The notes below the pieces were generated by a model that worked only from the letters and a program-made list of their open reading frames with translations, made no database searches and was not told the origin of the DNA. Shown in pieces: positions 17,937 through 39,706 of a stretch of DNA of 64,000 nucleotides. Position 1 is the first letter of the stretch, and the number at the start of each line of letters is the position of its first letter. The stretch lies in the NCBI GenBank assembly GCA_048941625.1, contig JBHLNK010000004.1:1094-65093 (forward strand), written 5' to 3'. A program made the translations under genes and the position numbers. The stretch comes from Promethearchaeota archaeon. GTDB lineage: Archaea; Asgardarchaeota; Lokiarchaeia; Sigyniarchaeales; SOKP01.

Positions 17937-18664
17937 TTGAAAACTACTATGAAATTACGACAATCAATTAACAAGGCTAGAGCGAAATTTTACAATATAG
18001 TAACTGATTATGACTTTATAAAGAAAAGTTCTATTATTGTTATAAGCGTATACTTTACACTTCTTTTAATAGCTGTTATCATAGCAGCAGTCTGGGGGCC
18101 TTATGGATATACAATATGGACTCGAATGATCTCAGATTTAGGAGGAAGTAATTATACTCCTACTCCATTCATTTTTGATATTGCATGCATATTTGCGGGG
18201 ATTATGATGATACCATTAACATTTTATGTTGAAAATTTGTTTGCTCCATTGCCAAAAAGAAATAATATAGAAGAACAGCATTATTCACGTTTGAGATTTA
18301 GATTAGGGAGTAATGCATTTTTCTTTAGCTTATTGGGAAATTTAGCGTATATATTTGTAGGAATATTTAGCGAAGATCGCAATCCACCTTTATTGGATTT
18401 CGCAAGTTTTCATGATGTGTTTTCTTTTTTTCGTTTGTAGGTTTTGCATTTGGAGCTTTCTTTATTGGATGGATTATTGTACTTTATGACATGAAAATTC
18501 CAAAATTATTTGGAATTTACGGGATAATAGGCCCTCCCACCATGTTATTTATTTTTCTCTATACCATGAAAGCTTTATGGGAATGGATTTTATTATTTTC
18601 AATTCTTCTCTGGATAATTCCCCTCATCGTCATGATACTTCGAAAACCAGAATTAAGAGCATAG
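17937..18664 (+). pseudogene. frameshifted copy of the membrane protein encoded at 18774-19499 (DUF998-like?)
   Basis: Frame 0 stops at 18440. The paralogue-matching C-terminus (FVGFAFGAFFIGWIIVLYDMKIPKLFGIYGIIGP...) continues in another frame to TAG at 18662-18664. The shift maps to a T7 run at about 18424-18430. Confidence 0.6.
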
Positions 18665-18773: not shown

Positions 18774-19499
18774 ATGACAATACGCGAATCAATAAATAAA
18801 ATCAGGGCGAAATTATATAATTTTGCTACTAATTTTAAAGTAGTGAAAATATCTGCCATGGTTGTTATGGTTGGATACATTCTATTACTAATTATTGGGG
18901 TTATCGTAGCGATGGTACTTGATCCAGATGGTTATACCATTTGGGATAACTGGATTTCCGATCTCGGTTCCATTGATCACACTCCCGCACCATATCTATA
19001 TGATATCGCTTGTATAGTAGCTGGTTCGATGACTATACCCCTAACATTTTATATGGAGAAATTCTTAGCTCCATTGCCCAAAAGATCTGATTTAGGACGA
19101 GAACATTATTCTAGATTGCGATTTCGATTAAGTAGTTTCGCTTTTCTCTTTAATATTATAGGAAATTTTGGATATATTGGAGTTGGTATTTTTAGTGCTG
19201 ATCGTGATTATAATGTATTGAATATTCTTGGAATGGGACCACATGGACTCATGTCGTATCTAGCATTTGGAGGATTCACTTTTGGTGCCTTTTTTATGGG
19301 GTGGCTGATTGTCTTTTATGATACTAAAATCCCAAAAATTTTAGGTATCTATGGCATACTGGGGCCATTAATTATTACTATCTTAAATTTGATTGATAGT
19401 ACTCCATTATTAGAATGGATGCTACTTTTCTCAATATTAATCTGGATAATTCCGCTTTCACTTATAATACTAACCAAACGAGAATTAGTTCCAAGCTAA
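18774..19499 (+). CDS. multi-pass membrane protein, intact tandem paralogue (DUF998-like?)
   Basis: 241 aa. Shares RAKLYNF, WISDLGS, TPAPYLYDIACI, PLPKR and HYSRLRFRL blocks with 17937-18664. Confidence 0.55.
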   Translation: MTIRESINKIRAKLYNFATNFKVVKISAMVVMVGYILLLIIGVIVAMVLDPDGYTIWDNWISDLGSIDHTPAPYLYDIACIVAGSMTIPLTFYMEKFLAPLPKRSDLGREHYSRLRFRLSSFAFLFNIIGNFGYIGVGIFSADRDYNVLNILGMGPHGLMSYLAFGGFTFGAFFMGWLIVFYDTKIPKILGIYGILGPLIITILNLIDSTPLLEWMLLFSILIWIIPLSLIILTKRELVPS

Positions 19500-22726: not shown

Positions 22727-24670
22727 ATGAGAAATCCTGAAAATCATCGGATTGGATACTATGCTTGTCAATGAGGTGTAAATATAAGAACTAAAGTAGA
22801 CTGTGATGAGTTAGTAGATTATGTGAGTAAAAACTTTGATGATGTTGTTATTGCTAAGAAAAATGCTTTCCTATGAACTGATAATGCTCAGAATGAAATA
22901 ATTGAAGATATAAAGGAGAAAAACTTAAACAGAATAGTGGCATCAGCTTGAACTCCACGTACACATGAAGTAATTTACCGAGGAACTATTGCTAAAACAG
23001 ATTTGAATCCATACTATTTTCAAATGGTAAATGTACGTGAACATTGTTCATGGTGTACAGATACTAAGGAAGAAGCTACAAAGAAAGCAAAATCTTTAGT
23101 GAAAAGTGGAATTGAAAGGGCTAAAAGACTTGAACCCGTCCCAATTAGAACGGTTCCAGTCACTAAAGCTACATTAGTTGTTGGTGGTGGGATAGGTGGG
23201 ATGAACGCAGCTCTCGATCTTGCAAATCAAGGTATCAAGGTATATTTAGTTGACCAAAAGACAACGATTGGAGGACGAATGTCTCAATTAGACCGAACAT
23301 TTCCTACCGACGATTGTGCAATATGAATTTGCGGACCTAAAATGTTGGAAGTCAATAGAAATGAGAACATTGAGTTAATAACTTATAGTGAAGTAAAGAA
23401 AATAGAGGGATTTGTTGGAAACTATAAAGTAACAATTCAAAAAAAACCACGATTTACTACAAAAGAATGTAATGGATGTGGAGCCTGTGCCGAAGTATGT
23501 CCTGTTTATATATCAAATTATTTCGATGAATACTTAGGTGCACGGAAAGCAATAGACATTCCATTTGGTCAAGCAGTACCATTTTTATATGATATCGATA
23601 GAAAAGCATGTATTGAGTGTTTTTCATGTGTAGATGCCTGTGAACTTGATGCGATTGATTTTAGTCAATTACCTACTGATATTGAAGTTGAAGTCGGTAC
23701 AATTATTATTGCAACTGGTTGGGATATATATGAACCCTTTGGAGAATATGGATATGGAGAATTTGAAAATGTCATAACACAAGTCCAATTAGAGAGAATA
23801 CTTGCACCTAATGGTCCACTTGAGGGGCATGTTCACAGAATATCAGATAATAAAAAACCTAAAGAAATTGTATTTATACAGTGTGTAGGAAGTCGAGAAA
23901 CTGAACGAACATATTGTAGTGGTGTCTGTTGTATGCTTGCTTTAAAAAATGGAAGGTTATTACTGGAAGAGTTTCCTGATGCGAATATAACAATATGTTA
24001 CATTGATATAAGAACTCCTGAAAAAGGATTTGAGGAGTATTATGAACGCGCAAAAGAAGCAGGGATAAAGATGATTCGGGGAAAAGTAGGTGAGATCTCT
24101 GAAGATCCTGAAACTAAGAATGTAAAAGTCAGAGTTTATTCATCTTTAACAGATAAAATTGTACTAATTGATGCCGATTTAGTAGTCTTATCTACAGCAG
24201 CACTTCCTTCAGCAGGAACTCAGCAAATTGTAGATGTTTTAAATCTTGATACTAATACATATGGATTTCTTACTGAATCGCATTTTGGTTTATTACCACA
24301 AGAAACAAAGTCAAAAGGTATTTTTATAGCTGGTTTTGCTCAAGGACCAAAGAATATTTCATATTCGGTCTCTCAAGCAAGAGCAGCTGCTAGTAAAGTA
24401 GCTGAATTAACAGCTCCAGGACAAATCGATATTGAATTGATTACTGCTGAAGTAAATAGTGAATTTTGTATTTCTTGTAGACGTTGTGAAAAGGAATGTC
24501 CAAAGAATGCAATAAGGATTGAAAAAGATATTGGAGCATTTATTGACGAAATAAATTGTGATGGCTGTGGAATTTGTGCAACCTGTTGTCCTACACAGGC
24601 AATCGATATCAGATATTATAGAGACCATCAATTATTTGCTGAAATTGATGGTTTATTAGGAGGTGATTAA
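22727..24670 (+). CDS. hdrA: heterodisulfide reductase subunit A of canonical size (647 codons), with four in-frame UGA codons read as selenocysteine
   Basis: One frame is continuous from ATG 22727 to TAA 24668-24670. The only interruptions are TGA at 22772, 22874, 22949 and 23324. Each aligns to a conserved Cys of the in-window paralogues: CHCG->CQUG, YTCSAD->FLUTDN, ASCTPRTHE->SAUTPRTHE, DCAICILAPK->DCAIUICGPK. The rest carries GGGIGG FAD motifs, four CxxCxxCxxxC ferredoxin motifs and CVGSR...YCSGVCC. Confidence 0.85.
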
Positions 24671-24676
24671 AGAGAC

Positions 24677-25138
24677 ATGGAAAATACCTTTAAAATAATT
24701 GTCTTTGCTTGTTTAAAATGAGGTTATAGTGCTGCTGATTTAGCAGGAGTTTCACGATTGAAATATACATCAGCAGTAAAAATAATCAAAGTGAAATGTA
24801 CTGGTAGAGTTGATCTTAAACATATACTTTATTGCATTCGTTCGGGAGCTGATGGTGTGATGATCGTAGGTTGACGTCCTAACGAATGTCAATTCAAAAA
24901 TGGTAATTTTACAGCAGATAGACATGTGGAATTAGCAAATAGAATTTTAGCATCGAGAGGTTTCGGAGATCAGAGAATAAATATGTATTGGTTAAGTGGA
25001 GCAGAGTCAGAAAAATTTGTAAAAAGTGTAGAAGATGCATTAGAAAAAGTAAAAAATTCTGGACCAAATCCGCTTAAATTAGTAAAAAAAGAAGCTAATG
25101 TCGAAAAAAAACTAGTCATAACTACCCCTGCAGAATGA
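24677..25138 (+). CDS. vhuD: MvhD/VhuD-type subunit (hydrogenase delta-subunit family) with two in-frame UGA codons read as selenocysteine
   Basis: ATG 24677 follows a GGAGGTGA Shine-Dalgarno-like sequence. TGA at 24719 and 24872 align to Cys of the MvhD paralogues: CCNWCSYAGADLAG->ACLKUGYSAADLAG and TGCHIGDCHY->VGURPNECQF. The frame ends at TGA 25136, and the next in-frame stop is TAA 25145-25147. Confidence 0.85.
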
Positions 25139-25184
25139 CTCTTATAATAAAATTATAGTTATAAGATGACTAACCTTGCAAGGG
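25126..25184 (+). promoter_or_regulatory. candidate SECIS element (AUGA_AA_GA, eukaryote-like kink-turn layout) overlapping the vhuD 3' end
   Basis: Hand fold. Helix I pairs 25126-25133 (CCCUGCAG) with 25176-25184 (UUGCAAGGG, A25180 bulged). The core is A25135-U-G-A25138 opposite U25167-G-A25169. Helix II pairs 25140-25147 with 25159-25166 (8 bp). The apical loop UAAAAUUAUAG has an A-run on its 5' side. Confidence 0.55.
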
Positions 25185-25254
25185 AAGGGGTTTTCAAATA
25201 GTATTCAATTTAAAATAAGAATTTTAGTAAAATTTAATCCAAAAGGATGGAAAT

Positions 25255-26781
25255 ATGGTTCAAATTTCAAATAATGTAAATTTCAATAGTATATCTCCAA
25301 AAAATTTAATGGATGCAACTTATCAGGCAGTTGAAAATTTTCAGATTAGAGCCTTTTTCGAAGCAAAAGAAGAAATTTTAAAAACTGGAAAGTATAACGA
25401 AGGTGAATTTTACGATATATTAGATGCTCTAATTAATGCAGAAACAGAACGGAAATTAATATTAGAATCATTAAAAGGTAAAAAACCATCATTTTTAGAG
25501 GAAATTGTTAAAATTGTAAAAGAATTTCCAATAGAAAATGTTATCCGTGATATTATTTATCTTAAAGAACAAGGTTTTGTTGAAGAACTTATTGAAATAA
25601 AAACTAAAACAATTATAAAGAAAATAAAAGGCGAAGAGAAAGAAGTTGAAGAAAAAGAATATTATTATAGATACCAAGTCAAAGATCTGCCTGATAACTT
25701 CGTAGAACATTTTTTTGAACCAGTTTCTATTGTGTTTGATTCTGAAGTCTGCTGTCAATGTGGTTGGTGTTCATCAATTTGCCCCGTCAACGCTATAACA
25801 GTTACAGCAGACACTTTGGAGATAGATGATGAAACTTGTATGAAATGCGGTTTATGTTTTTCAGTTTGTCCAAGATCATTTTCAATTGAACAAGCAGGTA
25901 AGACTATAAATAAGCTTGATAAAAATTTAAAATTCTCAGAAAAAATAAATGGTTATATCAATACTTATTCTGCGAGTACTACAAAGGATGATATTAAAAA
26001 AGTAAGACAAGATGGCGGGATAGTAACCTCCTTGCTTGAATACTTACTTAAAAATAAAATGGTTGATGCAATTGTAGCAGTAAAACATTCGAAGGATTTA
26101 TGGAAACCTGAACCAGTTATAGTAGAAGATGTAAAAGATTTATACAAGACAAGTGGTACAAAATACGCCAATGCCTCAACTTTAAGTATTTTAGATAAAA
26201 CAAAAAAGTATGAAAGTATTGCAGTGGTGGGCGTTCCTTGTATGATGAATGCTTTAGAGAAAGGTACAATGTTACCGAGTGGACTACCCTTTTTCAAAAA
26301 CATTAAGTATCGAATAGGGCTTTTTTGTATGGAATCTTTTCCTTATACTGGTGTTCTTAGCTTAATTAATGAAAAATTTCAAAAAGATTTTAATGAAATT
26401 AAAAAAATGGATATAAGTGGAGGTAAATTTATCATATACTTAGAATCAGGTGAAGATTTAAATGTACCTTTAAATGAAGTTAAATCCTATGCACGTCATA
26501 ATTGCCATTATTGTGAAGACTTAACTGCTGATTATGCAGATATTTCTGTAGGATCAATAGGGTCTCCCAGTGGTTGGTCTACTGTAATCACGCGAAATGA
26601 AAAAGGTGAAAAGCTTTACAACGGAGTGATTAAAGCAGGTTTGATCGAATCAAAAAGCTTAGATGAAGTTAAACCTGGACAACCTTTATTAGAGAGGATT
26701 GCAGGTAGTAAAAGGAAAAATTGTAAACCAATCGAATTAAAAAAAGAACAAGAAAGGAGTGGCAACCATAACTGTAACTAA
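25255..26781 (+). CDS. FrhB/FdhB-family iron-sulfur flavoprotein with a roughly 150-aa N-terminal extension (winged-helix-like) and 2x[4Fe-4S] motifs
   Basis: CCQCGWCSSICP and CMKCGLCFSVCP, then VRQDGGIVTSLL, VVGVPCMMNAL, GLFCMESF and CHYCEDLTADYADISVGSIG. Confidence 0.75.
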   Translation: MVQISNNVNFNSISPKNLMDATYQAVENFQIRAFFEAKEEILKTGKYNEGEFYDILDALINAETERKLILESLKGKKPSFLEEIVKIVKEFPIENVIRDIIYLKEQGFVEELIEIKTKTIIKKIKGEEKEVEEKEYYYRYQVKDLPDNFVEHFFEPVSIVFDSEVCCQCGWCSSICPVNAITVTADTLEIDDETCMKCGLCFSVCPRSFSIEQAGKTINKLDKNLKFSEKINGYINTYSASTTKDDIKKVRQDGGIVTSLLEYLLKNKMVDAIVAVKHSKDLWKPEPVIVEDVKDLYKTSGTKYANASTLSILDKTKKYESIAVVGVPCMMNALEKGTMLPSGLPFFKNIKYRIGLFCMESFPYTGVLSLINEKFQKDFNEIKKMDISGGKFIIYLESGEDLNVPLNEVKSYARHNCHYCEDLTADYADISVGSIGSPSGWSTVITRNEKGEKLYNGVIKAGLIESKSLDEVKPGQPLLERIAGSKRKNCKPIELKKEQERSGNHNCN

Positions 26782-28018
26782 AAAGTTAGATAAAATAAAA
26801 TCATATTCAGATGATAAATATGAATATTTGAAAAAAATATTTGACCCTAATTTAAATAACTTATTAAAAAAATGTTATCAATGTGCACGCTGCTCAGGTG
26901 TATGCCAAATCAGTAAAGTCCAGAAATTTACACCTAGTAGAATTATACAAACAATATTAGAAGGTTTTGAAGATGAAGTAATTAAAAGCAAGGTGTTATG
27001 GGACTGTTTAATGTGTAATAGTTGCTTGCAAAATTGCCCTAAAGATATCAATTTTGCTGATATTGTTAGGATTGCGAGATATAAAATGCGGATAAAAGAC
27101 ATTCAAAATCCTGATCGTTCTATCGCCCATAAAGGCATTTATCCTTTAATGTCAGAAATGATGTGTCAAGAAAATATAAAAATTGAAAGACCTCTTGATT
27201 GGATTCCAAAAGGTTGTAAAACTTCAGACAGAGGAAATATTTTATATTATGTAGGATGTTTACCATTTTTTAATTATGAATTTCAAGATTCAATTTCTAT
27301 AGCTGAAAGCACACTAAGAATTATTTGTAATTTAGAAAACGAATCTATAGTTGTCCTTAAAGATGAGATATGTTGTGGTCATGATTTATATTGGGGTCAA
27401 GCTAAATTCGAAAGTTTTATTGATTTAGCGAAAAAAAATGTTAATATGTTTGAAAAATCAGGTATTACCAAAATCGTTACTGCATGTGCGGAATGCTATA
27501 GAACTTTTAAAATTGATTATCCTAAATTATTTGAAGATTTTAAGGAGAAATTTGAAGTCAAACATATAATTGAATATATTTATGAGAAATGGAAAGAAGG
27601 AAAAGTTCAATTTAAGAATCCCGTTGAATTTAATGAGACTATTCCTTTTACTTATCACGATCCTTGTAGGCTCAGCAGATTTTTACCTAAAGATAATAAA
27701 ATAGTTGAAATTGTCAGAGAGATTTTCAAATATTTGAAAGTTATTGGTTACAGTTTTAAAGAAATGGAACATAGTAAAGGGAATTCCTATTGTTGTGGAG
27801 TAAATTCATGGATGAATTGTAATGAGCGATCTAAAGCTTTACGATACAAACGTCTTTTAGAAGCTAAAGCTGTTGGTACAAAAATGATTACATCATGCCC
27901 AAAATGCCGAATGCATTTAAAATGCATACAAAAGGATTATGAAGATTTTTCTTCTATTGAAATTTTAGATTTTTCAGAATTTATGGTAAATTTAATAGAA
28001 ATAAAAAAGCAAAATTAA
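26759..28018 (+). CDS. HdrC-HdrB fusion (HdrD-like) iron-sulfur protein with two CCG domains
   Basis: CYQCARCSGVC and CLMCNSCLQNCP (HdrC-like), then CCGHDLYWG, CAECY, DPCRLSR, CCGVNSW and SCPKC (HdrB-type CCG motifs). The GTG start overlaps the upstream gene by 23 nt. Confidence 0.8.
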   Translation: MATITVTKKLDKIKSYSDDKYEYLKKIFDPNLNNLLKKCYQCARCSGVCQISKVQKFTPSRIIQTILEGFEDEVIKSKVLWDCLMCNSCLQNCPKDINFADIVRIARYKMRIKDIQNPDRSIAHKGIYPLMSEMMCQENIKIERPLDWIPKGCKTSDRGNILYYVGCLPFFNYEFQDSISIAESTLRIICNLENESIVVLKDEICCGHDLYWGQAKFESFIDLAKKNVNMFEKSGITKIVTACAECYRTFKIDYPKLFEDFKEKFEVKHIIEYIYEKWKEGKVQFKNPVEFNETIPFTYHDPCRLSRFLPKDNKIVEIVREIFKYLKVIGYSFKEMEHSKGNSYCCGVNSWMNCNERSKALRYKRLLEAKAVGTKMITSCPKCRMHLKCIQKDYEDFSSIEILDFSEFMVNLIEIKKQN

Positions 28019-28034: not shown

Positions 28035-31000
28035 ATGAAGAAAGTCGGTGCAGTTTTAGTGATTGGTGGTGGAATCGCAGGAATTCAGACTTCTATAGAT
28101 CTAGCAGATTCAGGTTATAAAGTATATCTTGCAGAATCCACAACCAGTATTGGAGGAGTTATGTCTCAATTAGATAAAACCTTCCCTACTAATGATTGTG
28201 CGATATGTATTCTTGCTCCTAAATTAGTACAGACTGGAAGACATGAAAATATTGAAATTTTAATAGGATCTTCAATCGAAAAAATCGAAGGAGCTCCAGG
28301 TAATTTTAAAGTTTATTTAACTCAAAAATCACTTCGCTTAGATCAAAACAAATGTACAGGGTGCGGTTTATGTGCTCAGCAATGTCCAATAGAAGCAATA
28401 GATTTTTTCAATGAGAAGCTTTCTAATAAGGCTGCAATATCTGTAAAATTTCCTCAAGCAGTTCCTTTAGTTTTTTCAATTAACGATAAAAAATGTATTG
28501 GTTGCGGTATTTGCAAAGGAATATGTAAAGCAAAGGCTATAGATTATGAACTCCAAGATAAGTTAGTTAACCTTAATGTGGGAGCTGTGGTTTTAGCAAT
28601 TGGATTTGACGAATATGATCCAACACCTTTAACGGAATTAGGCTACGGTAAAAATTTAAATGTTATTACAAGTATTGAATTTGAACGTATACTTAGTGCC
28701 AGTGGACCACACTCTGGTTTAATAATTCGCCCTTCTGATGGAATTATTCCAAAAAAAATTGCTTTTTTACAATGTATTGGTTCAAGAGACAGAAAACGTA
28801 GAATTGATTATTGTTCTTCAGTATGTTGTATGTATACTACAAAAGAAGCAGTAATCGCAAAAGAGCACATGAATATTATAGAACCGACAATCTTTACAAT
28901 GGATGTTAGAGCATATGGGAAGGATTTTGATAAGTATATTGAACGAGCTAAGGAGGAATATGGAGTTAGATATATAAGGCGTAGGATATCTTCAATTAAA
29001 GAGATACCGGATTCTAAAGATTTAAAGGTTAATTATGAAACAAAGAATGGAAAAATTATTGAAGAAATATTTAATCTTGTTGTTCTCTCTGTTGGAATGC
29101 GACCTAATCAAAAAGCTAAAGATATAGCACAAAAATTAAATATCGAGTTGAATGAATATGGATTTTGTAAAACTGAAACATTTACACCAGTAGAGACTTC
29201 AAGACCAGGGATTTATGTGTGTGGGGCTTTTGCAACACCGAAAGATATTCCAGAAACTGTTATTGAAGCAAGTGCTGCTGCTGGACGTGTAAATGTACTT
29301 TTATCAGAAGCAAGAAATATGCTTATTACAAAGAAAGAACTTCCCGAGGAAATAGATGTATCAGATCAACCACCACGAATCGGAGTGTTCATATGTCATT
29401 GTGGTATAAATATTGGAGGAGTTGTTGATGTTCCTTCTGTAGTTGAATATGTTAAAACTCTACCAAATGTAGTATACGCTGAACATAATTTGTATACTTG
29501 TTCGGCAGACACTCAAACAAATATCAAAGAAAAAATAGAAAAAAACCATCTCAATAGAGTTATTGTTGCCTCTTGTACTCCAAGGACACATGAATCTTTA
29601 TTTCAAGCAACTATTAGAGAAGTTGGTTTAAATAAATATCTTTTTGAAATGGTTAATATTCGTGATCAATGTTCCTGGGTTCATATGCATGAACCTGAAA
29701 AAGCAACTGCAAAATCCAAAGACTTATTACGTATGTCTGTAGCAAAGGCAAGCCAATTAATCCCGTTAAAAGAACAAGAAATTTCTGTAATAGATAAGGG
29801 TTTAATCATCGGTGGAGGTGTGGCTGGAATGTCAGCAGCGTTAAATCTGGCATCTCAAGGTTATGAAATTTTCTTAATTGAAAAGGAAGATTCTTTAGGG
29901 GGTTTTGCTAAAAATATTTACCAGACTCTTGAAAATGATGATGTTCAGAATTATCTTGAAACCTTAATTGAAAGAGTTAAAAATAATCAGTCAATCCATG
30001 TGTTTACAAACGCTGGTATTAATTCAATATCTGGATATATAGGGAATTTTTCTACAGATATAAATTACGGAAATACTAATAAAAATTTAAATCTAGAACA
30101 TGGTATAATCATTGTAGCTACTGGAGCAAAAGAATATCAACCCACGGAATATAATTTTGGGAAAGATAAAAGAATTATAACTCAGGCTGAATTTGAAAAG
30201 AATCTTTTTACCACAGAGAATGTAAAAGAATTGAAATCTATAGTGATGATTCAATGTATTGGTTCGAGAAATGAGGAACATCTTTATTGTAGTCGAATCT
30301 GTTGCTCAGAAGCTATTAAAAATGCCTTAAAGGCAAAAGAAATGAATCCTGATATTGAAATAATTATTCTGTACCGTGATATACGAACCTATGGATTTAA
30401 AGAAAAATTTTATAATTTAGCTAGAGATAAAGGTGTTATTTTCCTTAGATTTGAAGAATCTAAGCCTCCAGAATTAAAAATAAAAAATAAGCAGTTAAAA
30501 TTAATATCAAATAATCCAGATTTAGGAAATCTTGAAATAAATCCTGATTTAATTGTACTAAGTACAGGTCTCGAAGCACCAAAAAATGAAAATGAAGAAC
30601 TAGCAAAAATGTTAAAAGTCCCCCTTAATGAGGATAAATTCTTTTTGGAAGCTCATGTGAAATTGAGACCAATTGATTTTGCTACAGATGGTATATATTT
30701 ATGTGGAACGGCACATTCACCTAAAGATCTTAGAGAATCAATTGCACAAGCGAATGGCGCTGCTGCTCAAGCGGTTAAAATTTTAAGTGCTGAAAAACTT
30801 GTGACTTCTGGTCTTGTAGCAGTTGTAATAGAAGAAAATTGCATTGGGTGTGGAAGTTGTATGGAAGTGTGTCAATTTAATGCCATTGAATTAATAGAAG
30901 AAGAAAGAACTTTTGAAGATCTTACAATGATTATGAGAAAATCTCATGTAAACCCTGCACTCTGTAAAGGTTGCGGTACGTGTGGTGCTCAATGCCCTAA

Positions 31001-31076
31001 TTCAACAATAGTTATAAAGCATTTTGGTTTTGAGCAAATACACGCTATGATTTCTGCCCTATTAGTTCAAACTTAA
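28035..31076 (+). CDS. hdrA: giant fused HdrA-like flavoprotein (1013 aa): thioredoxin-reductase-like module + ferredoxin, HdrA N-terminal-type Cys domain, second FAD module, C-terminal ferredoxin
   Basis: VIGGGIAGIQ, DCAICILAPK, CTGCGLCAQQCP, CIGCGICKGIC, CIGSRD...YCSSVCC, ICHCGINIGG, YTCSAD, ASCTPRTHE, DQCSWVH, IIGGGVAGM, CIGCGSCMEVC and CKGCGTCGAQCP. Confidence 0.85.
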   Translation: MKKVGAVLVIGGGIAGIQTSIDLADSGYKVYLAESTTSIGGVMSQLDKTFPTNDCAICILAPKLVQTGRHENIEILIGSSIEKIEGAPGNFKVYLTQKSLRLDQNKCTGCGLCAQQCPIEAIDFFNEKLSNKAAISVKFPQAVPLVFSINDKKCIGCGICKGICKAKAIDYELQDKLVNLNVGAVVLAIGFDEYDPTPLTELGYGKNLNVITSIEFERILSASGPHSGLIIRPSDGIIPKKIAFLQCIGSRDRKRRIDYCSSVCCMYTTKEAVIAKEHMNIIEPTIFTMDVRAYGKDFDKYIERAKEEYGVRYIRRRISSIKEIPDSKDLKVNYETKNGKIIEEIFNLVVLSVGMRPNQKAKDIAQKLNIELNEYGFCKTETFTPVETSRPGIYVCGAFATPKDIPETVIEASAAAGRVNVLLSEARNMLITKKELPEEIDVSDQPPRIGVFICHCGINIGGVVDVPSVVEYVKTLPNVVYAEHNLYTCSADTQTNIKEKIEKNHLNRVIVASCTPRTHESLFQATIREVGLNKYLFEMVNIRDQCSWVHMHEPEKATAKSKDLLRMSVAKASQLIPLKEQEISVIDKGLIIGGGVAGMSAALNLASQGYEIFLIEKEDSLGGFAKNIYQTLENDDVQNYLETLIERVKNNQSIHVFTNAGINSISGYIGNFSTDINYGNTNKNLNLEHGIIIVATGAKEYQPTEYNFGKDKRIITQAEFEKNLFTTENVKELKSIVMIQCIGSRNEEHLYCSRICCSEAIKNALKAKEMNPDIEIIILYRDIRTYGFKEKFYNLARDKGVIFLRFEESKPPELKIKNKQLKLISNNPDLGNLEINPDLIVLSTGLEAPKNENEELAKMLKVPLNEDKFFLEAHVKLRPIDFATDGIYLCGTAHSPKDLRESIAQANGAAAQAVKILSAEKLVTSGLVAVVIEENCIGCGSCMEVCQFNAIELIEEERTFEDLTMIMRKSHVNPALCKGCGTCGAQCPNSTIVIKHFGFEQIHAMISALLVQT

Positions 31077-31094
31077 TTTAAAAGGTGAAAATTT

Positions 31095-31526
31095 ATGTCT
31101 AAATCAAAAAAGAAAATAAGCAAAAAGGAGTTTCACCCTAATATATTGTGTTTTTGTTGCAATTGGTGTAGTTATGCAGGAGCAGATTTAGCGGGAGTTT
31201 CCCGATTTCAATATCCCTCCACAATCAGAATTGTGCGAGTAATGTGTTCTGGTAGAGTAGATCCTGCCTTCATTCTAGAAGCATTTAAAGATGGTATCGA
31301 CGGAGTAATTGTAACAGGATGTCACATAGGTGACTGTCATTATTTGAAAGGAAATGAGTTTGCTAGAGACAGGTTTGAAAATTTTCATAAAATTTTACAT
31401 ATTTTTAACCTTGATAAGAGATTTAGACTTGAATGGGTTAGTGCATCTGAAGGAAAACGATTTGCTGAAGTCATTGCAGAATTCACAAATCAAATTAAAG
31501 AACTGGGTCCACTAAGACCGAATTAG
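31095..31526 (+). CDS. mvhD: MvhD-type subunit (methyl-viologen-reducing hydrogenase delta subunit family), all-Cys version
   Basis: ILCFCCNWCSYAGADLAGVSRFQYP, RVMCSGRVDP and TGCHIGDCHY. Confidence 0.85.
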   Translation: MSKSKKKISKKEFHPNILCFCCNWCSYAGADLAGVSRFQYPSTIRIVRVMCSGRVDPAFILEAFKDGIDGVIVTGCHIGDCHYLKGNEFARDRFENFHKILHIFNLDKRFRLEWVSASEGKRFAEVIAEFTNQIKELGPLRPN

Positions 31527-32076: not shown

Positions 32077-35000
32077 ATGATGGAAGGATTTGTTTTGGTT
32101 ATTGGTGGTGGAATTGCTGGGATACAAGCTTCTTTAGATTTAACAGATTTAGGATTTAAAGTATATTTAGTAGAAAAAACACCTTCAATTGGGGGAAGAA
32201 TGGCGCAGTTAGATAAAACATTCCCCACTAATGATTGTAGTTTATGTATTCTTGCTCCAAAAATGGTTGAGGTGTTTAGAAATCCTAATATTGAATTAAT
32301 GACTTATCATGAGGTTAAAAAAGTATCTGGTAAGAAAGGAAATTTTATGGTTACAGTTCTTAAGAACCCTCGTTATATTGATGAAAAAAAATGTAAGGGA
32401 TGTGGTGATTGTGCTGCGAGATGTCCTAAGATTGAATTTCCTAACATATTTGATATGAATTTGGGTAAAAGAAAATCAGTTTACATTCCGTTTCCTCAAG
32501 CTGTTCCGCCTGTATACTTAATTGATTCAAATTTATGTTTAAAGCTAACCAAAGGAGTATGTGGGGTTTGTGAAAAAGTTTGTAAGGCAGAAGCGATAAA
32601 TTTTGAACAAAAACCTAAAGAAATTAATATTAATGTTGGTGCAATTGTAGTTGCTACTGGTTTTGATACTTTAGGAGAAGAATTAACTTCAAGATGGGGT
32701 TATAGATTTGATAATGTAGTAAGTGCTCTTGAATATGAACGGATTTTATCCGCATCAGGACCATTTGAAGGTCATATTTTACGACCTAGTGATAGAAAAG
32801 AGCCAGAAAAGATCGCATTTATTCAATGTGCAGGATCTAGGGATTTACGTGAAGGAATCCCTTATTGTTCCTCAGTATGTTGTATGTATACTGCGAAAGA
32901 AGCAATTATAACAAAAGAACATTCAGAAAACTCAAAGTGTTTTGTATTTCGGCATGACGTAAGAGCATATGGGAAAAATTTTTTTGAATACACTCAGAGA
33001 GCTCAAGAGGAATATGGAGTAATATATTTCCAAACTAAAATTAGCAGAATAATTGAAGATCCGGAAACAAATGATTTAGTGATACATTATGAAGATCTAA
33101 AAACGGGCGAATTTAAGGATTTTAAGGCAAATTTAGTAGTATTAGCAGCCCCTCTTGTACCTTCAGCTGGAACTATAGAACTAGCAAAGATTTTAGGAAT
33201 CAAATTAGATGAATATAATTTCTTTAAAGAGAAATCATATTTTGATAAAGCTTTATCTTCAAAGGAAGGTATTTTTTTAGCTGGTTTCTGTCAAGGTCCA
33301 ATGGATATACCCGAAACAGTAGCTGATTCAAGTGGTGTGGCTTCTCAAGTTGCAAGTTTACTTAGCAACTATAAGTTTACTGAAACAAAAGAAAAAGCTA
33401 TAAGAATACCAGAAAAGGAGGTAAAGCAATCAGATGAAGCAAGAATAGGCGTTCTCATATGTCATTGTGGAATTAATATTGGTAAATATATAGACATTCC
33501 TAAGGTTATTGAACAGATAAAAAAATTGCCAAATGTTGTATTTTGTGAAGATAATTTGTACTCCTGTAGTTCTGATTCACAAGAAAGAATTAAAGAAGTA
33601 ATATCGGAATATAATTTAAATAGATTTATTGTGGCTTCTTGTACACCGCGTACGCATGAACAATTATTCCAAGAAACCTGTCAAGAAGCAGGTTTAAATA
33701 AATATTTATTTGAAATGGTGAACATCAGAGACCAATGCTCATGGGTACATATGACAGAGAAGGAGCTTGCTACGGAAAAAGCAATTGATTTAATCAGAAT
33801 GGGGATAGCAAAATCAAGATTATTAAAATCGCAAGAAGAAAAAACATTGAAAATCACACAGACTGCGATGATAATTGGAGGAGGTATATCCGGAATGACA
33901 GCAGCATTGAATATAGCTAGTCAAGGATTTAAAGTGTATCTAATAGAAAAAGAGCAAAATTTAGGTGGAAATTTAAAATACTTAAATATGCTATTTCCTA
34001 CTCAAGAGGATGCTTCAATCTTGCTAAATGAAACAATAGAACAAGTAATAAATAATAATAACATTCAAATCTTTTTAAAATCTAATATAAAAGAAATTAA
34101 AGGGTATATTGGGAATTATGACGCTTCAATCATCGATTCAGAAAAGGTTAGCCATGAATTGAAAATTGGAACTATAATTGTTGCCACAGGTGGAAAAGAA
34201 TTAAAGCCTAATGAATTTTTTAATTATACATACACAAATCATAATGTGATTACGCAGCTACAATTAGAACAGAAACTAAAAGATGAAGATCAATCGTGGC
34301 TGGACAAACTTAATCATATAACGACACTTCTATGTGTTAACGCTAGACAAGAAAATGGGATTACCTATTGTTCGAACATTTGTTGTGAAACAGCGATAAA
34401 AAATATAAATATCCTAAAGGAAATAAAACATGATCTCAAGTTGATAGTTCTTTATAGAGATCTTCAGATGGCAAAAAAAGAATTTGAAAGATATTATCGT
34501 GAACGAAGAAAAGACGCCGTTTTCTTGAGATACGACTTAGATCACCCTCCTATCATTACAGAATCAAATGGAGAAAAAGAAAAATTTGAAATTGATGTAT
34601 TTGATACCAATCTTCAGGAAAATATTAACTTCAACACAGACTTAATAGTACTCTCAACACCAATGGTTCCAGCAGACAATTTGAATGAATTAGCACAAAA
34701 ACTTAAAGTTCCTCTAGATAAAAATGGATTCTTTTTAGAAGCTCATGTAAAATTACGACCATTAGATTTTGCGACAGATGGAATCTTCCTATGTGGATGT
34801 GCTCATTGGCCAAAAAATGTTCAAGATTCCATATCACAAGCAAATGGCGCTGCGGGTAGAGCATGCAGATTTTTAAGTGCTGGGGAGATTACAACATCTG
34901 GATTAATAGCAGAGGTAGATCCAGAGATTTGCATAGGATGTGGGACATGTGAGGAAGCTTGTTCATATAATGCAATAGAAATTACAAACTTTGTAAAAGA

Positions 35001-35160
35001 TTTTGAAGAAGTAAGTCTACCGATTAAAAAATCTACAATAAATTCGGGATTATGTAAAGGTTGTGGTACTTGTGCTGTTAATTGTCCAGTTGGGGCAATT
35101 TCTATAAAACATTATGATTTTGAGCAAATTAATGCAATGATTAAGACACTTGCTCTATAA
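32077..35160 (+). CDS. hdrA: giant fused HdrA-like flavoprotein (1027 aa). The start may be the second ATG at 32080.
   Basis: Same motif order as 28035-31076: VIGGGIAGIQ, DCSLCILAPK, CHCGINIGK, YSCSSD, ASCTPRTHE, DQCSWVH, IIGGGISGM, CIGCGTCEEAC and CKGCGTCAVNCP. A close paralogue of 36592-39696. Confidence 0.85.
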   Translation: MMEGFVLVIGGGIAGIQASLDLTDLGFKVYLVEKTPSIGGRMAQLDKTFPTNDCSLCILAPKMVEVFRNPNIELMTYHEVKKVSGKKGNFMVTVLKNPRYIDEKKCKGCGDCAARCPKIEFPNIFDMNLGKRKSVYIPFPQAVPPVYLIDSNLCLKLTKGVCGVCEKVCKAEAINFEQKPKEININVGAIVVATGFDTLGEELTSRWGYRFDNVVSALEYERILSASGPFEGHILRPSDRKEPEKIAFIQCAGSRDLREGIPYCSSVCCMYTAKEAIITKEHSENSKCFVFRHDVRAYGKNFFEYTQRAQEEYGVIYFQTKISRIIEDPETNDLVIHYEDLKTGEFKDFKANLVVLAAPLVPSAGTIELAKILGIKLDEYNFFKEKSYFDKALSSKEGIFLAGFCQGPMDIPETVADSSGVASQVASLLSNYKFTETKEKAIRIPEKEVKQSDEARIGVLICHCGINIGKYIDIPKVIEQIKKLPNVVFCEDNLYSCSSDSQERIKEVISEYNLNRFIVASCTPRTHEQLFQETCQEAGLNKYLFEMVNIRDQCSWVHMTEKELATEKAIDLIRMGIAKSRLLKSQEEKTLKITQTAMIIGGGISGMTAALNIASQGFKVYLIEKEQNLGGNLKYLNMLFPTQEDASILLNETIEQVINNNNIQIFLKSNIKEIKGYIGNYDASIIDSEKVSHELKIGTIIVATGGKELKPNEFFNYTYTNHNVITQLQLEQKLKDEDQSWLDKLNHITTLLCVNARQENGITYCSNICCETAIKNINILKEIKHDLKLIVLYRDLQMAKKEFERYYRERRKDAVFLRYDLDHPPIITESNGEKEKFEIDVFDTNLQENINFNTDLIVLSTPMVPADNLNELAQKLKVPLDKNGFFLEAHVKLRPLDFATDGIFLCGCAHWPKNVQDSISQANGAAGRACRFLSAGEITTSGLIAEVDPEICIGCGTCEEACSYNAIEITNFVKDFEEVSLPIKKSTINSGLCKGCGTCAVNCPVGAISIKHYDFEQINAMIKTLAL

Positions 35161-35311
35161 ATTCATATAAATACAAATCTTTAGTTTTCAATTCATTTAT
35201 TTCTTATTTGACATTAGAGTTATGAACCCTAATCAGAAAAAATAAATTATTTCCATTTTTTTCCTATTCATTATTGGTTCAAATTATTAAAATTTGATTT
35301 AAACAGTAAAA

Positions 35312-36592
35312 GTGAAGAATATTACTGAAACGACAAAAGTGGATGATTCTGAAGAACTAAAGGAAAATAATGATTCTTATCTCAGTAAAATTTATGAACC
35401 AAATATAAGGAAATTGTTATACAGATGCTATCAATGTGTTCGTTGTAGTGGTGTCTGTCAACTTAGTAAAGTTCAGACTTTCGAACCTAGTAAGATAATT
35501 CAATTGATTTTAGAGGGATTTGAAGATAAAGTTATTGAGAGTGGTATTTTATGGGATTGCTTAACTTGCAATGCTTGTCTTCAAAATTGTCCAGAGGGTA
35601 TAAATTTTGCAGATATAGTAAGAATAGTTAAATATAAAATGCGTAAATCCCACAATCAATCCCCAGATGATTATATTGCTCATAAAGGAATATATACTAC
35701 TATATCAGAAATAATGAGTGAACCTCAAATAAAACCAGAAAGATCTCTAGATTGGGTTCCCAAAGACTGTAAAATTGCTGACGAAGGAGATATTTTGTAT
35801 TATGTGGGATGTCTACCTTATTTTAATTTCGAATTCAATAATTCAGAAACTATAGCTGAAAGTACTTTGAAAATTCTTTGTCAAATTGAAAAAGAACCGA
35901 TTGTTGTTCTTAAAGATGAGATATGCTGTGGACATGATCTGTACTGGGGCCAAGGGAAATTTGATGCTTTTATCAATTTAGCAAAAAAAAATGTTAAAAG
36001 ACTTGAAAAAACAAGAGCTAAAACTATCGTGACTGCCTGTGCTGAATGCTATAGAACGTTGAAAGTCGATTATCCCAATTTATTTGATGATTTCAAACGA
36101 AAATTCAATGTTAAACATTTAATTGAATATATTTATGAAAAATGGAAGGAAGGAAAAATTGAATTCAAGAATCCAAATCAGGGAGAACTAAAGATCCCTT
36201 TTACATATCATGACCCCTGTAGATTAAGCAGGTTTTTACCTAAAGATAGTAATATAATTGAAAATGTTCGCGAGATTTTTAATCATTTAAAAACATTAGG
36301 TTATCAATTTAATGAAATGGTTCATAGTAAGACAGATGCCTTATGTTGTGGAGTTAATTCTTGGATGAATTGCAATGATCGGTCAAAAGCGTTAAGATAT
36401 AAAAGACTTCTAGAGGCAAAAGATGTAGGAGAAATAATGGTCACCTCATGTCCTAAATGTAAAATGCATTTATCCTGTTTACAAAATGATTACGAAGACA
36501 TTTCTTCAATTGAAATTGTAGATTTTTCTGAATTTTTAGTAGGATTCATCCTTATCGTAGATTCAAATAACAAAGGGGTGAGTGAAGGATAA
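35312..36592 (+). CDS. HdrC-HdrB fusion (HdrD-like) iron-sulfur protein, paralogue of 26759-28018
   Basis: CYQCVRCSGVC, CLTCNACLQNCP, CCGHDLYWG, DPCRLSR and CCGVNSW. Its stop overlaps the next ATG (TAATG). Confidence 0.8.
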   Translation: MKNITETTKVDDSEELKENNDSYLSKIYEPNIRKLLYRCYQCVRCSGVCQLSKVQTFEPSKIIQLILEGFEDKVIESGILWDCLTCNACLQNCPEGINFADIVRIVKYKMRKSHNQSPDDYIAHKGIYTTISEIMSEPQIKPERSLDWVPKDCKIADEGDILYYVGCLPYFNFEFNNSETIAESTLKILCQIEKEPIVVLKDEICCGHDLYWGQGKFDAFINLAKKNVKRLEKTRAKTIVTACAECYRTLKVDYPNLFDDFKRKFNVKHLIEYIYEKWKEGKIEFKNPNQGELKIPFTYHDPCRLSRFLPKDSNIIENVREIFNHLKTLGYQFNEMVHSKTDALCCGVNSWMNCNDRSKALRYKRLLEAKDVGEIMVTSCPKCKMHLSCLQNDYEDISSIEIVDFSEFLVGFILIVDSNNKGVSEG

Positions 36593-39696: not shown

Positions 39697-39706
39697 GTGA
39701 TTGATC

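What the first reader, a model, noticed from the sequence alone, without database searches (positions are those of the whole stretch)
24677..25138. MvhD/VhuD homologue with two in-frame UGA codons at Cys positions, ending on a third UGA
The frame from ATG 24677 is interrupted only by TGA at 24719 (codon 15) and 24872 (codon 66). These align to Cys in the two all-Cys MvhD copies in this window: CCNWCSYAG vs ACLKUGYSA, and GCHIGDCHY vs GURPNECQF. VhuD of Methanococcus is a known two-Sec selenoprotein, so the homology argument is strong. The ORF ends on TGA 25136, with TAA following at 25145. The real C-terminus therefore depends on whether that last UGA is decoded as Sec, which would add U-L-L. 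The ORF track reports only the last 70 codons.
Basis: partly seen in the sequence, partly recalled or inferred. Interest (0 to 1): 0.8.

Follow-up and report, generated by a model that had tools for sequence, protein, structure and literature searches.

The report
Two-selenocysteine VhuD gene of Lokiarchaeon
This is a real gene for a small iron-sulfur electron-transfer protein (VhuD/MvhD) of an Asgard (Loki-type) archaeon in which two UGA "stop" codons are read as selenocysteine under the direction of an RNA signal just after the gene; the arrangement was already described for Lokiarchaeota in 2016, so it is a correct but ordinary find.

Summary
ATG 24677 opens a 153-codon frame with TGA at codons 15 and 66. 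The frame ends on TGA 25136, followed by L-L-TAA.

With U read as C it is a full-length MvhD/FlpD domain (Pfam E 3e-41). Both UGAs align to Cys in the two paralogues in the window. They also align to the two Sec residues of the solved Methanococcus maripaludis VhuD.

All 61 orthologous loci, all Asgard MAGs, keep TGA at both sites. All three coding segments show period-3 constraint.

A Loki-type, eukaryote-like SECIS lies at 25124-25191:
- AUGA core
- 9-position stem
- 11-nt A-rich loop ending AG
- GA after the stem
- a lower helix

It scores 95 bits with a model built without the window, and it covaries.

The terminal UGA is the UGA of the SECIS core AUGA, as in 51 of 55 orthologues. It therefore most likely acts as a stop, not a third Sec.

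Upstream hdrA (22727-24670) has four more Sec codons and no SECIS of its own. The pair shares one SECIS, as published by Mariotti et al. (2016) and Huang et al. (2024).

Verdict: new member of a known kind.

The parts
22727..24670 (+). hdrA, heterodisulfide-reductase subunit A homologue. It is 647 codons long with a TAA stop and is the first cistron of the pair. Four in-frame UGA (Sec) codons lie at 22772, 22874, 22949 and 23324 (codons 16, 50, 75, 200).
   Evidence: Translation. Pfam hits to FAD/NAD-binding and 4Fe-4S domains. Sec codons are conserved at positions 16, 75 and 200 in 52-57 of 57 sequences (56 loci and the window); position 50 is Sec in 47 and Cys in 5. The hdrA stop is always TAA or TAG.
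24658..24666 (+). Shine-Dalgarno-like AGGAGGTGA. It overlaps the end of hdrA and lies 10 nt upstream of the vhuD ATG.
   Evidence: Read directly from the sequence. The gap between the hdrA stop and the vhuD start is 6 nt here and 3-23 nt in all but one orthologue; L056 overlaps by 11 nt. Its function is inferred.
24677..25138 (+). vhuD/mvhD coding sequence, 153 codons plus the terminal UGA.
   Evidence: Pfam PF02662, E 3.1e-41, full domain. Matches to PDB VhuD/MvhD chains with E 6e-37 to 2e-26. 61 Asgard orthologues at 67-90% identity. Period-3 constraint in all segments.
24719..24721 (+). UGA codon 15, read as selenocysteine (C12-x-x-U15 motif).
   Evidence: Aligns to Cys in both paralogues and to X (Sec) in 9sfi_K. 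TGA in 60 of 60 sequences.
24872..24874 (+). UGA codon 66, read as selenocysteine (U66-x4-C71 motif).
   Evidence: Aligns to Cys in both paralogues and to X (Sec) in 9sfi_K. TGA in 59 of 59 sequences.
25124..25191 (+). Loki-type (eukaryote-like, type I) SECIS element. Its parts are:
- lower helix 25124-25129 paired with 25186-25191
- core AUGA 25135-25138
- upper stem 25139-25147 paired with 25159-25167 (8 Watson-Crick pairs plus a basal C.U)
- apical loop 25148-25158, UAAAAUUAUAG
- GA 25168-25169
- small hairpin 25174-25184
   Evidence: Motif scan. Alignment of 49 and 59 sequences with covariation: 93.5% of cells paired, 11 of 18 pairs with changes on both sides, 0 of 500 shuffles reach the score. 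A covariance model built without the window scores it 95.2 bits, E about 9e-25, against a next-best 14.6 bits. There is one hit per locus, always just after vhuD.
25136..25138 (+). Terminal UGA of vhuD, which is also the UGA of the SECIS core AUGA. It is inferred to act as the stop codon.
   Evidence: 51 of 55 orthologues end on this same core UGA. Three end on TAG 5 nt upstream and one on TAA 17 nt upstream. Mariotti 2016 and Huang 2024 describe the same overlap.
25191..25194 (+). U-tract directly after the lower helix (GGGGUUUU). Possibly an archaeal terminator for the hdrA-vhuD transcript.
   Evidence: GGGGUUUU(U) is conserved in most orthologues. The terminator role is an inference only.
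25255..26781 (+). FrhB/FdhB-family protein (508 aa) with a ferredoxin domain. Conserved downstream neighbour and likely electron-input partner.
   Evidence: Pfam PF04432 and PF04422. Present about 120 nt after vhuD in 58 loci.
26759..28018 (+). HdrD-like protein (two CCG domains plus a 4Fe-4S dicluster, equivalent to fused HdrC/HdrB). Likely disulfide-reductase partner.
   Evidence: Pfam PF02754 and Fer4 families. Found downstream in 50 loci.

Best explanation
The region 24677-25138 encodes the VhuD/MvhD subunit of an HdrA-type flavin-based electron-transfer complex of a Loki-type Asgard archaeon (Promethearchaeota). The protein is a 153-residue selenoprotein with selenocysteine at positions 15 and 66.

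How it most likely works:
1. hdrA and vhuD are translated from one bicistronic mRNA. They are separated by 6 nt, and vhuD has its own Shine-Dalgarno-like site.
2. A single eukaryote-like SECIS (25124-25191) lies at the 3' end of that mRNA. It recruits the Sec-specific elongation factor with Sec-tRNA(Sec).
3. This allows the two UGAs of vhuD, 263 and 416 nt upstream of the SECIS, to be read as Sec.
4. The four UGAs of hdrA, 1.8-2.4 kb upstream, are read the same way.
5. The last UGA (25136) is part of the SECIS core itself. A ribosome with that codon in its A site has melted the lower helix and has the 5' arm of the upper stem in its mRNA channel. The signal is therefore absent at that moment and the codon terminates translation. 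The C-terminus is ...ITTPAE.

The mature protein most likely carries a [2Fe-2S] cluster that passes electrons from an input module to the FAD of HdrA. Here the input module is probably the conserved FrhB-like neighbour. Only five Cys/Sec positions are invariant (C12, U15, C41, U66, C71). If all four cluster ligands come from these five, at least one Sec is a ligand.

Shown here: the reading frame, the homology, conservation of the UGAs, the SECIS structure with its covariation, and its overlap with the stop codon.

Inferred: actual Sec insertion, one SECIS serving both cistrons, termination at 25136, the cluster, and the partner proteins.
For: - Frame and codons.
- Full-length PF02662 match, E 3.1e-41.
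- UGAs align to Cys in both paralogues.
- UGAs align to the two X (Sec) positions of the solved M. maripaludis VhuD 9sfi_K (E 5.8e-37). VhuD carries the K1 [2Fe-2S] cluster that feeds the FAD of HdrA (PMC13518236; PMC6019823).
- 61 orthologous loci, all but one from bins labelled as Asgard or uncultured archaea.
- TGA at position 15 in 60/60 and at position 66 in 59/59; C12, C41 and C71 invariant.
- Third-codon-position entropy of 1.0-1.24 against 0.12-0.64 at positions 1 and 2, in the segments before, between and after the UGAs.
- TGA is an ordinary stop for 7 of 43 long frames in the window.
- SECIS: exact AUGA-9-11-9-GA architecture with the loop ending AG; covariation; 95.2 bits with an independent model; one hit per locus, none after hdrA.
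- hdrA always ends on TAA or TAG.
- 51 of 55 vhuD orthologues end on the core UGA and 4 end shortly before it.
- All of this matches the published description of Loki HdrA-VhuD pairs (PMC4989117; PMC11227280).
Against: - No Sec machinery (tRNA-Sec, EFSec, PSTK, SepSecS, SelD) is present in the 64-kb window. The source genome could not be identified, so its presence rests on the literature for the clade.
- Sec insertion has not been shown experimentally for any Asgard archaeon, as far as the papers read here report.
- The basal pair of the upper stem is a C.U mismatch. This position is unpaired in 24 of 59 sequences, so it is not unusual.
- The first loop base is U instead of the preferred A.
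- That one SECIS acts over 2.4 kb and across two cistrons is a published hypothesis, not a demonstrated fact.
- Termination at 25136 is inferred from geometry and comparison, not measured.
Confidence: 0.9

Rival explanations
1. The third UGA (25136) is also decoded as selenocysteine. The protein would then end ...TTPAE-U-L-L at TAA 25145 and carry three Sec residues.
For: The codon is a UGA in an mRNA that carries a SECIS. It is conserved as UGA in 51 of 55 orthologues. The two following codons always encode hydrophobic residues (F/L/I/V/Y, then L) before a TAA in most loci.
Against: - The UGA is part of the SECIS core, and the next nine bases are the 5' arm of the upper stem. Their conservation is explained by RNA: the first base after the UGA covaries with its 3' partner (UA 16, AU 11, GU 4, CG 2, UG 2).
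- Four orthologues stop on TAG or TAA 5-17 nt upstream while keeping the SECIS.
- Where the stem's TAA is replaced by CAA, read-through would add about 25-30 unrelated residues (L041, L049, L053, L055).
- A ribosome at this codon has the SECIS unfolded. Mariotti 2016 argues for the same minimal-distance rule.
Confidence: 0.05
2. The gene is a decaying pseudogene or is truncated. The UGAs are nonsense mutations, and at most the 70-88-residue C-terminal fragment is made.
For: A mechanical ORF call gives only 24926-25138. Two all-Cys MvhD paralogues in the window could cover the function.
Against: - The same two TGA codons are present in all 59-60 sequences that cover them, across the most divergent orthologues (down to 67% identity).
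- The segments before and between the UGAs are under the same coding constraint as the last segment.
- The fragment alone would lack C12, U15 and C41, and with the GTG start of the listed ORF also U66 and C71.
- A conserved SECIS follows the gene.
Confidence: 0.01
3. UGA is not Sec here. It is read as another amino acid (Trp, Gly or Cys) through a changed genetic code or general near-cognate read-through.
For: The genome is AT-rich (about 30% GC), as are some lineages with UGA reassignment. No tRNA-Sec lies in the window.
Against: - 7 of 43 long open frames in the window end on TGA, and only hdrA and vhuD have TGA inside a credible coding frame.
- All six internal UGAs sit at conserved Cys positions.
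- The SECIS is present and conserved.
- The homologous positions are Sec in a solved structure.

Some Cys misincorporation under selenium shortage cannot be excluded.
Confidence: 0.02
4. Sec insertion is directed by bacterial-type hairpins immediately 3' of each UGA inside the coding sequence, not by the 3' element.
For: In the window, a 10-bp helix starts 11 nt after UGA15.
Against: - That helix is not conserved. Orthologues keep 62% of the pairs on average, and wobble changes are uncompensated.
- Its energy is not unusual (z = -1.5).
- The regions after the other five UGAs fold no better than shuffles (z = -0.75 to +1.3).
- Apart from one 5'-UTR case recalled from memory, archaeal SECIS elements are known only in 3' UTRs.
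Confidence: 0.01

Closest known systems
Lokiarchaeota HdrA-VhuD tandem selenoprotein genes sharing one lokiSECIS (Mariotti et al. 2016, PMC4989117; Asgard-wide survey by Huang et al. 2024, PMC11227280)
   Same: - Multi-Sec hdrA directly upstream of two-Sec vhuD on the same strand with a very short gap.
- hdrA ends on UAA or UAG.
- A single SECIS lies only after vhuD.
- SECIS architecture: AUGA, 9-position stem, 11-nt loop with A-rich 5' part and terminal (A)G, then GA.
- The UGA stop overlaps the AUGA.
- Up to six UGAs are served over about 2 kb.
   Different: Nothing of kind. This is another species-level orthologue: 67-90% amino-acid identity to the copies in GTDB representative genomes, and not on record in the protein collection. 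Minor details differ, namely a basal C.U in the stem and U as the first loop base. I could not check from the text read whether the published lokiSECIS model includes the conserved lower helix and the small 3' hairpin seen here.
[quoted passage not shown]
   Same: - Same Pfam family.
- Sec at both homologous positions (CxxU and UxxxxC).
- Invariant C12, C41 and C71 equivalents.
- Neighbour and partner of HdrA.
- [2Fe-2S] relay to the FAD of HdrA.
   Different: - The methanogen SECIS is the euryarchaeal GAA_A type, with an added AUGA in VhuD.
- HdrA there has one Sec and, as the 2016 paper implies, its own SECIS.
- The methanogen protein is 134 aa and lacks the roughly 20-residue tail, whose last codons here double as the SECIS lower helix.
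- The host here is not a methanogen. No [NiFe] hydrogenase gene was found among the window ORFs scanned.
Eukaryotic type I SECIS (kink-turn AUGA_GA core, unpaired A's in the apical loop, 3' UTR)
   Same: Core motif, A-rich apical loop, position 3' of the coding sequence, action at a distance on several UGAs, and a minimal-distance rule that leaves a nearby UGA as a stop.
   Different: - The upper stem is shorter (9 positions).
- It serves a polycistronic prokaryotic mRNA.
- No SBP2 is known in Asgard archaea (PMC4989117).
- It is not detected by the Rfam library (no family reached E <= 10 over the element) or, according to the authors, by SECISearch.
All-Cys MvhD paralogues in the same window (31095-31526 and 39701-40141)
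   Same: Same domain (PF02662, E 3e-53 and 2e-58). Same five conserved Cys positions. Each follows an HdrA-type gene.
   Different: 33-36% identity. Cys instead of Sec. No SECIS after them. They follow double-length HdrA fusion proteins of about 1,000 aa.

Membership tests
MvhD/VhuD/FlpD (Pfam PF02662) | Sequence match to the family profile over the whole domain, above the curated cut-off | tested here: met
   140.7 bits against a cut-off of 22.3; E 3.1e-41; aa 7-127 on profile positions 1-121 of 123. PDB VhuD/MvhD chains match with E 6e-37 to 2e-26.
MvhD/VhuD/FlpD (Pfam PF02662) | Conserved Cys/Sec set that can hold the [2Fe-2S] cluster | tested here: met
   C12, U15, C41, U66 and C71 are invariant in 59-60 sequences and align to Cys in the paralogues and in PDB chains. 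Which four are ligands was not determined.
MvhD/VhuD/FlpD (Pfam PF02662) | Genomic association with hdrA | tested here: met
   hdrA ends 6 nt upstream. The pair is conserved in every locus that reaches far enough upstream.
MvhD/VhuD/FlpD (Pfam PF02662) | Binds a [2Fe-2S] cluster and transfers electrons to HdrA | not testable with these tools
   Known for the methanogen proteins (PMC6019823, PMC13518236). Inferred here.
Sec-containing VhuD (archaeal two-Sec selenoprotein) | In-frame UGA at the two positions that are Sec in characterised VhuD | tested here: met
   Query positions 15 and 66 align to the two X residues of 9sfi_K.
Sec-containing VhuD (archaeal two-Sec selenoprotein) | SECIS element on the same mRNA | tested here: met
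   25124-25191. 95.2 bits with a model trained without the window. Covariation supports the structure.
Sec-containing VhuD (archaeal two-Sec selenoprotein) | Sec machinery in the genome (tRNA-Sec, EFSec, PSTK, SepSecS, SelD) | not testable with these tools
   None in the 64-kb window. The genome was not identified. Huang 2024 reports the trait in 85.9% of Lokiarchaeia/Helarchaeales genomes.
Sec-containing VhuD (archaeal two-Sec selenoprotein) | Selenium actually incorporated | not testable with these tools
   Needs 75Se labelling or mass spectrometry.
lokiSECIS / Asgard eSECIS-like type I | AUGA immediately 5' of the stem, and GA (or AA) immediately 3' of it | tested here: met
   AUGA at 25135-25138 and GA at 25168-25169.
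lokiSECIS / Asgard eSECIS-like type I | 9-bp stem and 11-nt apical loop | tested here: met
   The 9/11/9 spacing is exact. 8 Watson-Crick pairs plus a basal C.U; that basal position is unpaired in 24 of 59 family members.
lokiSECIS / Asgard eSECIS-like type I | First five loop bases mostly A; last loop base G, usually preceded by A | tested here: met
   The loop is UAAAAUUAUAG: four of the first five bases are A, and it ends AG.
lokiSECIS / Asgard eSECIS-like type I | Located at or overlapping the end of the selenoprotein gene; one element for an hdrA-vhuD pair | tested here: met
   The core UGA is the vhuD stop. No second element was found in the window or after hdrA in any locus.
lokiSECIS / Asgard eSECIS-like type I | Structure supported by compensatory changes | tested here: met
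   7 of 9 upper-stem pairs and 3 of 6 lower-helix pairs show changes on both sides. 0 of 500 shuffles reach the covariation score. Slid controls give 45-63% paired against 93.5%.
Bacterial-type SECIS (hairpin just 3' of the UGA) | Stable, conserved hairpin starting about 11 nt after each Sec codon | tested here: not met
Rfam SECIS families (SECIS_1 to SECIS_5) | Match to the curated covariance models | tested here: not met
   No hit at gathering score in the window and none at E <= 10 in 25050-25300. This agrees with Mariotti 2016, who found that existing tools miss the lokiSECIS.

The most novel reading that the evidence does not exclude
Placing the stop codon inside the kink-turn core of the only SECIS may be a regulatory design rather than a neutral overlap. 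It is conserved in 51 of 55 orthologues.

Every ribosome that finishes vhuD must unfold the element that six upstream UGAs depend on. Ribosome traffic, or selenium supply, could then feed back on Sec decoding of the whole hdrA-vhuD message. Alternatively, a minor Sec-Leu-Leu-tailed isoform could be made when Sec-tRNA is abundant.

Nothing here excludes this. Nothing here supports it beyond the conservation, which RNA constraints alone already explain.
Probability: 0.06. Interest if true: 0.55.

Novelty: new member of a known kind. Interest (0 to 1): 0.3.

Why it matters
The locus confirms in one more Asgard genome the arrangement that links archaeal and eukaryotic selenocysteine decoding. That arrangement is a eukaryote-like SECIS in a 3' position that appears to serve six UGA codons in two cistrons over 2.4 kb.

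For annotation, it means that hdrA and vhuD here must be called through their UGAs. The protein should end at ...TTPAE.

The comparative set assembled here gives:
- 59 SECIS elements with covariation
- a conserved lower helix that overlaps the last five codons
- a conserved small 3' hairpin
- a stop codon inside the core in 93% of cases

This is a ready basis for reporter experiments. It adds detail, not a new principle.

Tried and rejected
1. **Second SECIS-like motif inside hdrA (24071).** It has the same ATGA-9-11-9-GA spacing. It encodes the conserved peptide MIRGKVGEISED. In orthologues the Arg wobble base changes freely without compensation, the ATGA is missing in about half of the loci, and the loop usually ends in A rather than G. 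The covariance models do not find it. Rejected as a by-product of protein conservation.

2. **10-bp hairpin 11 nt after UGA15, as a bacterial-type SECIS.** Not conserved.

3. **Rfam search**, at gathering score and at a permissive threshold. No SECIS family hit; only noise, including a weak C/D-box snoRNA hit at E = 9 over the kink-turn motif.

4. **Identifying the source genome** by exact protein look-up of the FrhB-like neighbour. Not on record.

5. **Sec machinery in the window**, by ARAGORN, Rfam and Pfam scans of 40 further ORFs (46 proteins with the locus genes scanned). None found.

6. **The split DUF998 gene at 17937-18664, as a possible mini-intron** (prompted by the introns seen in related loci). 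It is a frameshift in a run of seven T, not an insertion.

7. **The 35-nt insertion in L018 hdrA.** A strict bulge-helix-bulge motif with symmetric cuts does not give the right frame. Left unresolved.

8. **The HdrA N-terminal domain, added to the MvhD protein alignment.** It did not align usefully.

Full report
**1. The observation**

The sequence is as described.
- ATG 24677 opens a frame interrupted only by TGA at 24719 (codon 15) and 24872 (codon 66).
- The frame ends on TGA 25136, followed by CTC TTA TAA TAA.
- The plain ORF list gives only the last 70 codons (24926-25138).
- With the two UGAs read as Cys, the 153-residue product matches the MvhD/FlpD family PF02662 over the whole domain (E 3.1e-41).

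**2. The organism and the neighbourhood**

The window is about 30% GC. A scan of one genome per prokaryotic species with the protein returned 61 loci at 67-90% identity. All but one are from bins labelled Promethearchaeota/Promethearchaeia (Lokiarchaeia), another Asgard phylum, or simply uncultured archaeon. The exception, labelled a Sumerlaeota bacterium, is probably mis-binned. None is identical, and an exact look-up of a neighbouring protein found nothing. This is therefore a Loki-type archaeon not in those collections.

The window also carries Asgard-typical small GTPases, a Urm1/ThiS-ThiF pair and a class I lysyl-tRNA synthetase.

Directly upstream, with its stop 6 nt before the vhuD ATG, lies hdrA (22727-24670). 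It has four in-frame TGA codons at 22772, 22874, 22949 and 23324, all at Cys-type positions. Downstream follow an FrhB/FdhB-family gene and an HdrD-like gene. The order hdrA-vhuD-frhB-like-hdrD-like is kept in 50-58 of the loci.

**3. Are the UGAs coding?**

- Every sequence that covers the sites has TGA at position 15 (60/60) and position 66 (59/59). C12, C41 and C71 are invariant. C53 is not.
- The segments before, between and after the UGAs all show the coding signature. Third-position entropy is 1.0-1.24, against 0.12-0.64 at positions 1 and 2.
- TGA is not reassigned in general. 7 of 43 long frames in the window end on it, and only hdrA and vhuD have it inside a credible gene.
- The best match among solved structures is VhuD of the Methanococcus maripaludis Hdr-Vhu-Fwd super-assembly (9sfi chain K, E 5.8e-37). 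Its sequence has the non-standard residue X, which I read as Sec, at precisely the two aligned positions (PMC13518236).

Together these results exclude a pseudogene, a 70-residue fragment and a code change as serious readings.

**4.

The bases after the gene read AUGA | CUCUUAUAA | UAAAAUUAUAG | UUAUAAGAU | GA (25135-25169). This is the published lokiSECIS architecture (PMC4989117):
- AUGA
- a 9-position stem
- an 11-nt loop with an A-rich start and a final AG
- GA

In the window this strict pattern occurs twice, against 0.05 expected from shuffles. The other copy was rejected (paragraph 6).

The same element follows vhuD in all 58 loci that extend far enough. The alignment shows three further points:
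- A lower helix (25124-25129 with 25186-25191) has clear compensatory changes: CCCC/GGGG, CUCC/GGAG, CACC/GGUG and CUCUC/GAGAG.
- A small conserved hairpin lies at 25174-25184.
- A U-tract follows the lower helix.

Pair counts give 93.5% of cells paired, 11 of 18 pairs changed on both sides, and no shuffle of 500 reaching the score. Slid controls give 45-63% paired.

A covariance model built without the window scores 25118-25195 at 95.2 bits (E about 9e-25). The next best hit in the 64 kb scores 14.6 bits. There is exactly one hit per locus and none after hdrA. Rfam has no family that detects it.

**5. The third UGA**

TGA 25136 is the UGA of the core AUGA. The three following codons (CUC UUA UAA) are the 5' arm of the upper stem. 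The last five sense codons (ACU ACC CCU GCA GAA, TTPAE) contain the 5' strand of the lower helix.

- 51 of 55 orthologues with a readable end stop on this same core UGA. Three stop on TAG 5 nt upstream and one on TAA 17 nt upstream, each with the SECIS intact.
- If the UGA were read through, the tail would be 2 residues in most loci but about 25-30 in those where the stem TAA is CAA.
- The first base after the UGA covaries with its 3' partner.

A ribosome with this codon in the A site covers the lower-helix strand and holds the upper-stem arm in its entry channel. This follows from general knowledge of ribosome footprints. The SECIS therefore cannot be folded at that moment, and I infer termination at 25136.

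This is the minimal-distance argument of Mariotti et al.. Huang et al. state that Loki UGA stops often overlap the AUGA. As they also observed, hdrA always ends on TAA or TAG, here in 57 of 57 sequences.

**6. Rivals tested**

- Local hairpins after the six UGAs are no more stable than shuffles.
- The one 10-bp helix after UGA15 is not conserved.
- The second ATGA-9-11-9-GA motif, at 24071 inside hdrA, is a by-product of the conserved peptide MIRGKVGEISED. Its wobble changes are uncompensated.

**7. Mechanism and function**

The best-supported picture is a bicistronic hdrA-vhuD mRNA whose single 3' SECIS directs Sec insertion at six UGAs. These lie 263, 416, 1811, 2186, 2261 and 2363 nt upstream of the core.

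VhuD and MvhD carry a [2Fe-2S] cluster that passes electrons from an input enzyme to the bifurcating FAD of HdrA (PMC6019823; PMC13518236). Only five Cys/Sec positions are invariant and four ligands are needed. If all four ligands come from those five, at least one Sec is probably a cluster ligand (inference).

The conserved FrhB-like and HdrD-like neighbours suggest the partners. No [NiFe] hydrogenase gene turned up among the window ORFs scanned.

Sec insertion itself, the cross-cistron action of the SECIS, and the presence of the Sec machinery in this genome remain unshown. The machinery is not in the window.

**8. Comparison and verdict**

Every feature matches the HdrA-VhuD pairs described in Lokiarchaeota in 2016 and surveyed across Asgard archaea in 2024. 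VhuD is listed as a known two-Sec family (PMC13188914). The locus is a new orthologue of a known kind.

What this analysis adds is quantitative:
- the frequency of the stop-in-core arrangement
- the covarying lower helix that doubles as the last codons
- the small 3' hairpin

Interest is modest (0.3).

**9. Seen in passing**

In three related MAGs, hdrA carries short insertions within 20 nt of each other in the region encoding MVNVREHCSWC.

L001 and L002 each carry a 39-nt insertion containing a stop codon. It folds into a canonical bulge-helix-bulge motif: a 4-bp central helix UGGU/GCCA, two AAA bulges, a 9-bp inner helix and an exon-exon outer helix. Its excision restores QMVNVREH exactly.

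This looks like an archaeal splicing-endonuclease intron in an Asgard protein-coding gene. A search of the held papers for Asgard, bulge-helix-bulge, intron and protein-coding turned up no report of one. Asgard archaea do have the broad-specificity (alpha-beta)2 endonuclease (PMC5829648).

This feature is not in the window and needs RNA data.

Noticed in passing
L001:2310-2360 (CAYSZJ010000004.1) and L002:961-1011 (CAZBNW010000091.1); homologous to window ~23030: hdrA of two related Asgard MAGs carries a 39-nt insertion with an in-frame stop. It folds as a canonical bulge-helix-bulge motif:
- 4-bp helix UGGU/GCCA
- two AAA bulges
- 9-bp inner helix whose arms are conserved while the loop differs
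- exon-exon outer helix

Cutting in the bulges restores the conserved QMVNVREH exactly. This is a likely archaeal-type intron in an Asgard protein-coding gene. A loose BHB motif is common by chance in this AT-rich DNA (2093 per 446 kb). At one fixed place and length the expectation is about 4e-5.
   Followed up: partly
L018:~2335-2370 (NJBH01000004.1, Loki_b32): A 35-nt, frame-shifting insertion lies in hdrA about 20 nt 3' of the site above (inside H-C|S-W-C). Removing it restores the frame. The fold shows an exon-exon helix, a 3-nt bulge at the 3' junction and a 5-bp helix. It does not fit a strict symmetric BHB. It could be a relaxed intron, a pseudogene or an assembly error.
   Followed up: partly
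window 22727-24670: hdrA has four Sec codons (16, 50, 75, 200). Three lie in the N-terminal Fe-S domain. They are conserved in 47-57 of 57 sequences (56 orthologues and the window), with Cys at position 50 in five. hdrA has no SECIS of its own and always ends on TAA or TAG.
   Followed up: yes
window 25174-25184 and 25191-25210: A small hairpin (CC[U/C]-N5-[A/G]GG, with invariant CC/GG and a GC in the loop) sits in the 3' side of the SECIS internal loop in all 59 sequences. After the lower helix comes GGGGUUUU(U), followed in close relatives by a conserved AAAUAGUAUUCAAU. This may be a terminator plus the TATA region of the next gene.
   Followed up: partly
window 28035-31526, 32077-36592, 36592-40141: Three further Hdr-type modules follow in tandem. 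Double-length HdrA fusion proteins (1013, 1027 and 1034 aa) contain an internal copy of the N-terminal-domain motif. Two of them are followed by an all-Cys MvhD, and a second HdrD-like gene lies at 35312-36592. None has UGA codons or a SECIS.
   Followed up: partly
window 17937-18664: A DUF998-family gene, paralogue of 18774-19499, is split between two frames at a run of seven T (about 18424-18430). This is a frameshift (sequencing error, pseudogene or slippage), not an insertion.
   Followed up: partly
window 722-1315, 9051-9959, 41223-41519, 41788-42591: Asgard-type eukaryote-like genes are present: a Ras/Arf-family small GTPase, a Gtr1/RagA-family GTPase, and a Urm1/ThiS-like modifier close to (about 270 nt from, opposite strand) a ThiF/E1-like enzyme.
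   Followed up: no
window 24071-24105: An ATGA-9-11-9-GA motif with 8 of 9 pairs lies inside hdrA. It was shown to be a consequence of the conserved peptide MIRGKVGEISED, not a second SECIS.
   Followed up: yes
L005 (CAZYWQ010000329.1): A contig labelled 'Candidatus Sumerlaeota bacterium' carries the Asgard hdrA-vhuD-SECIS-frhB locus at 83% identity. It is probably a mis-binned Asgard contig.
   Followed up: no
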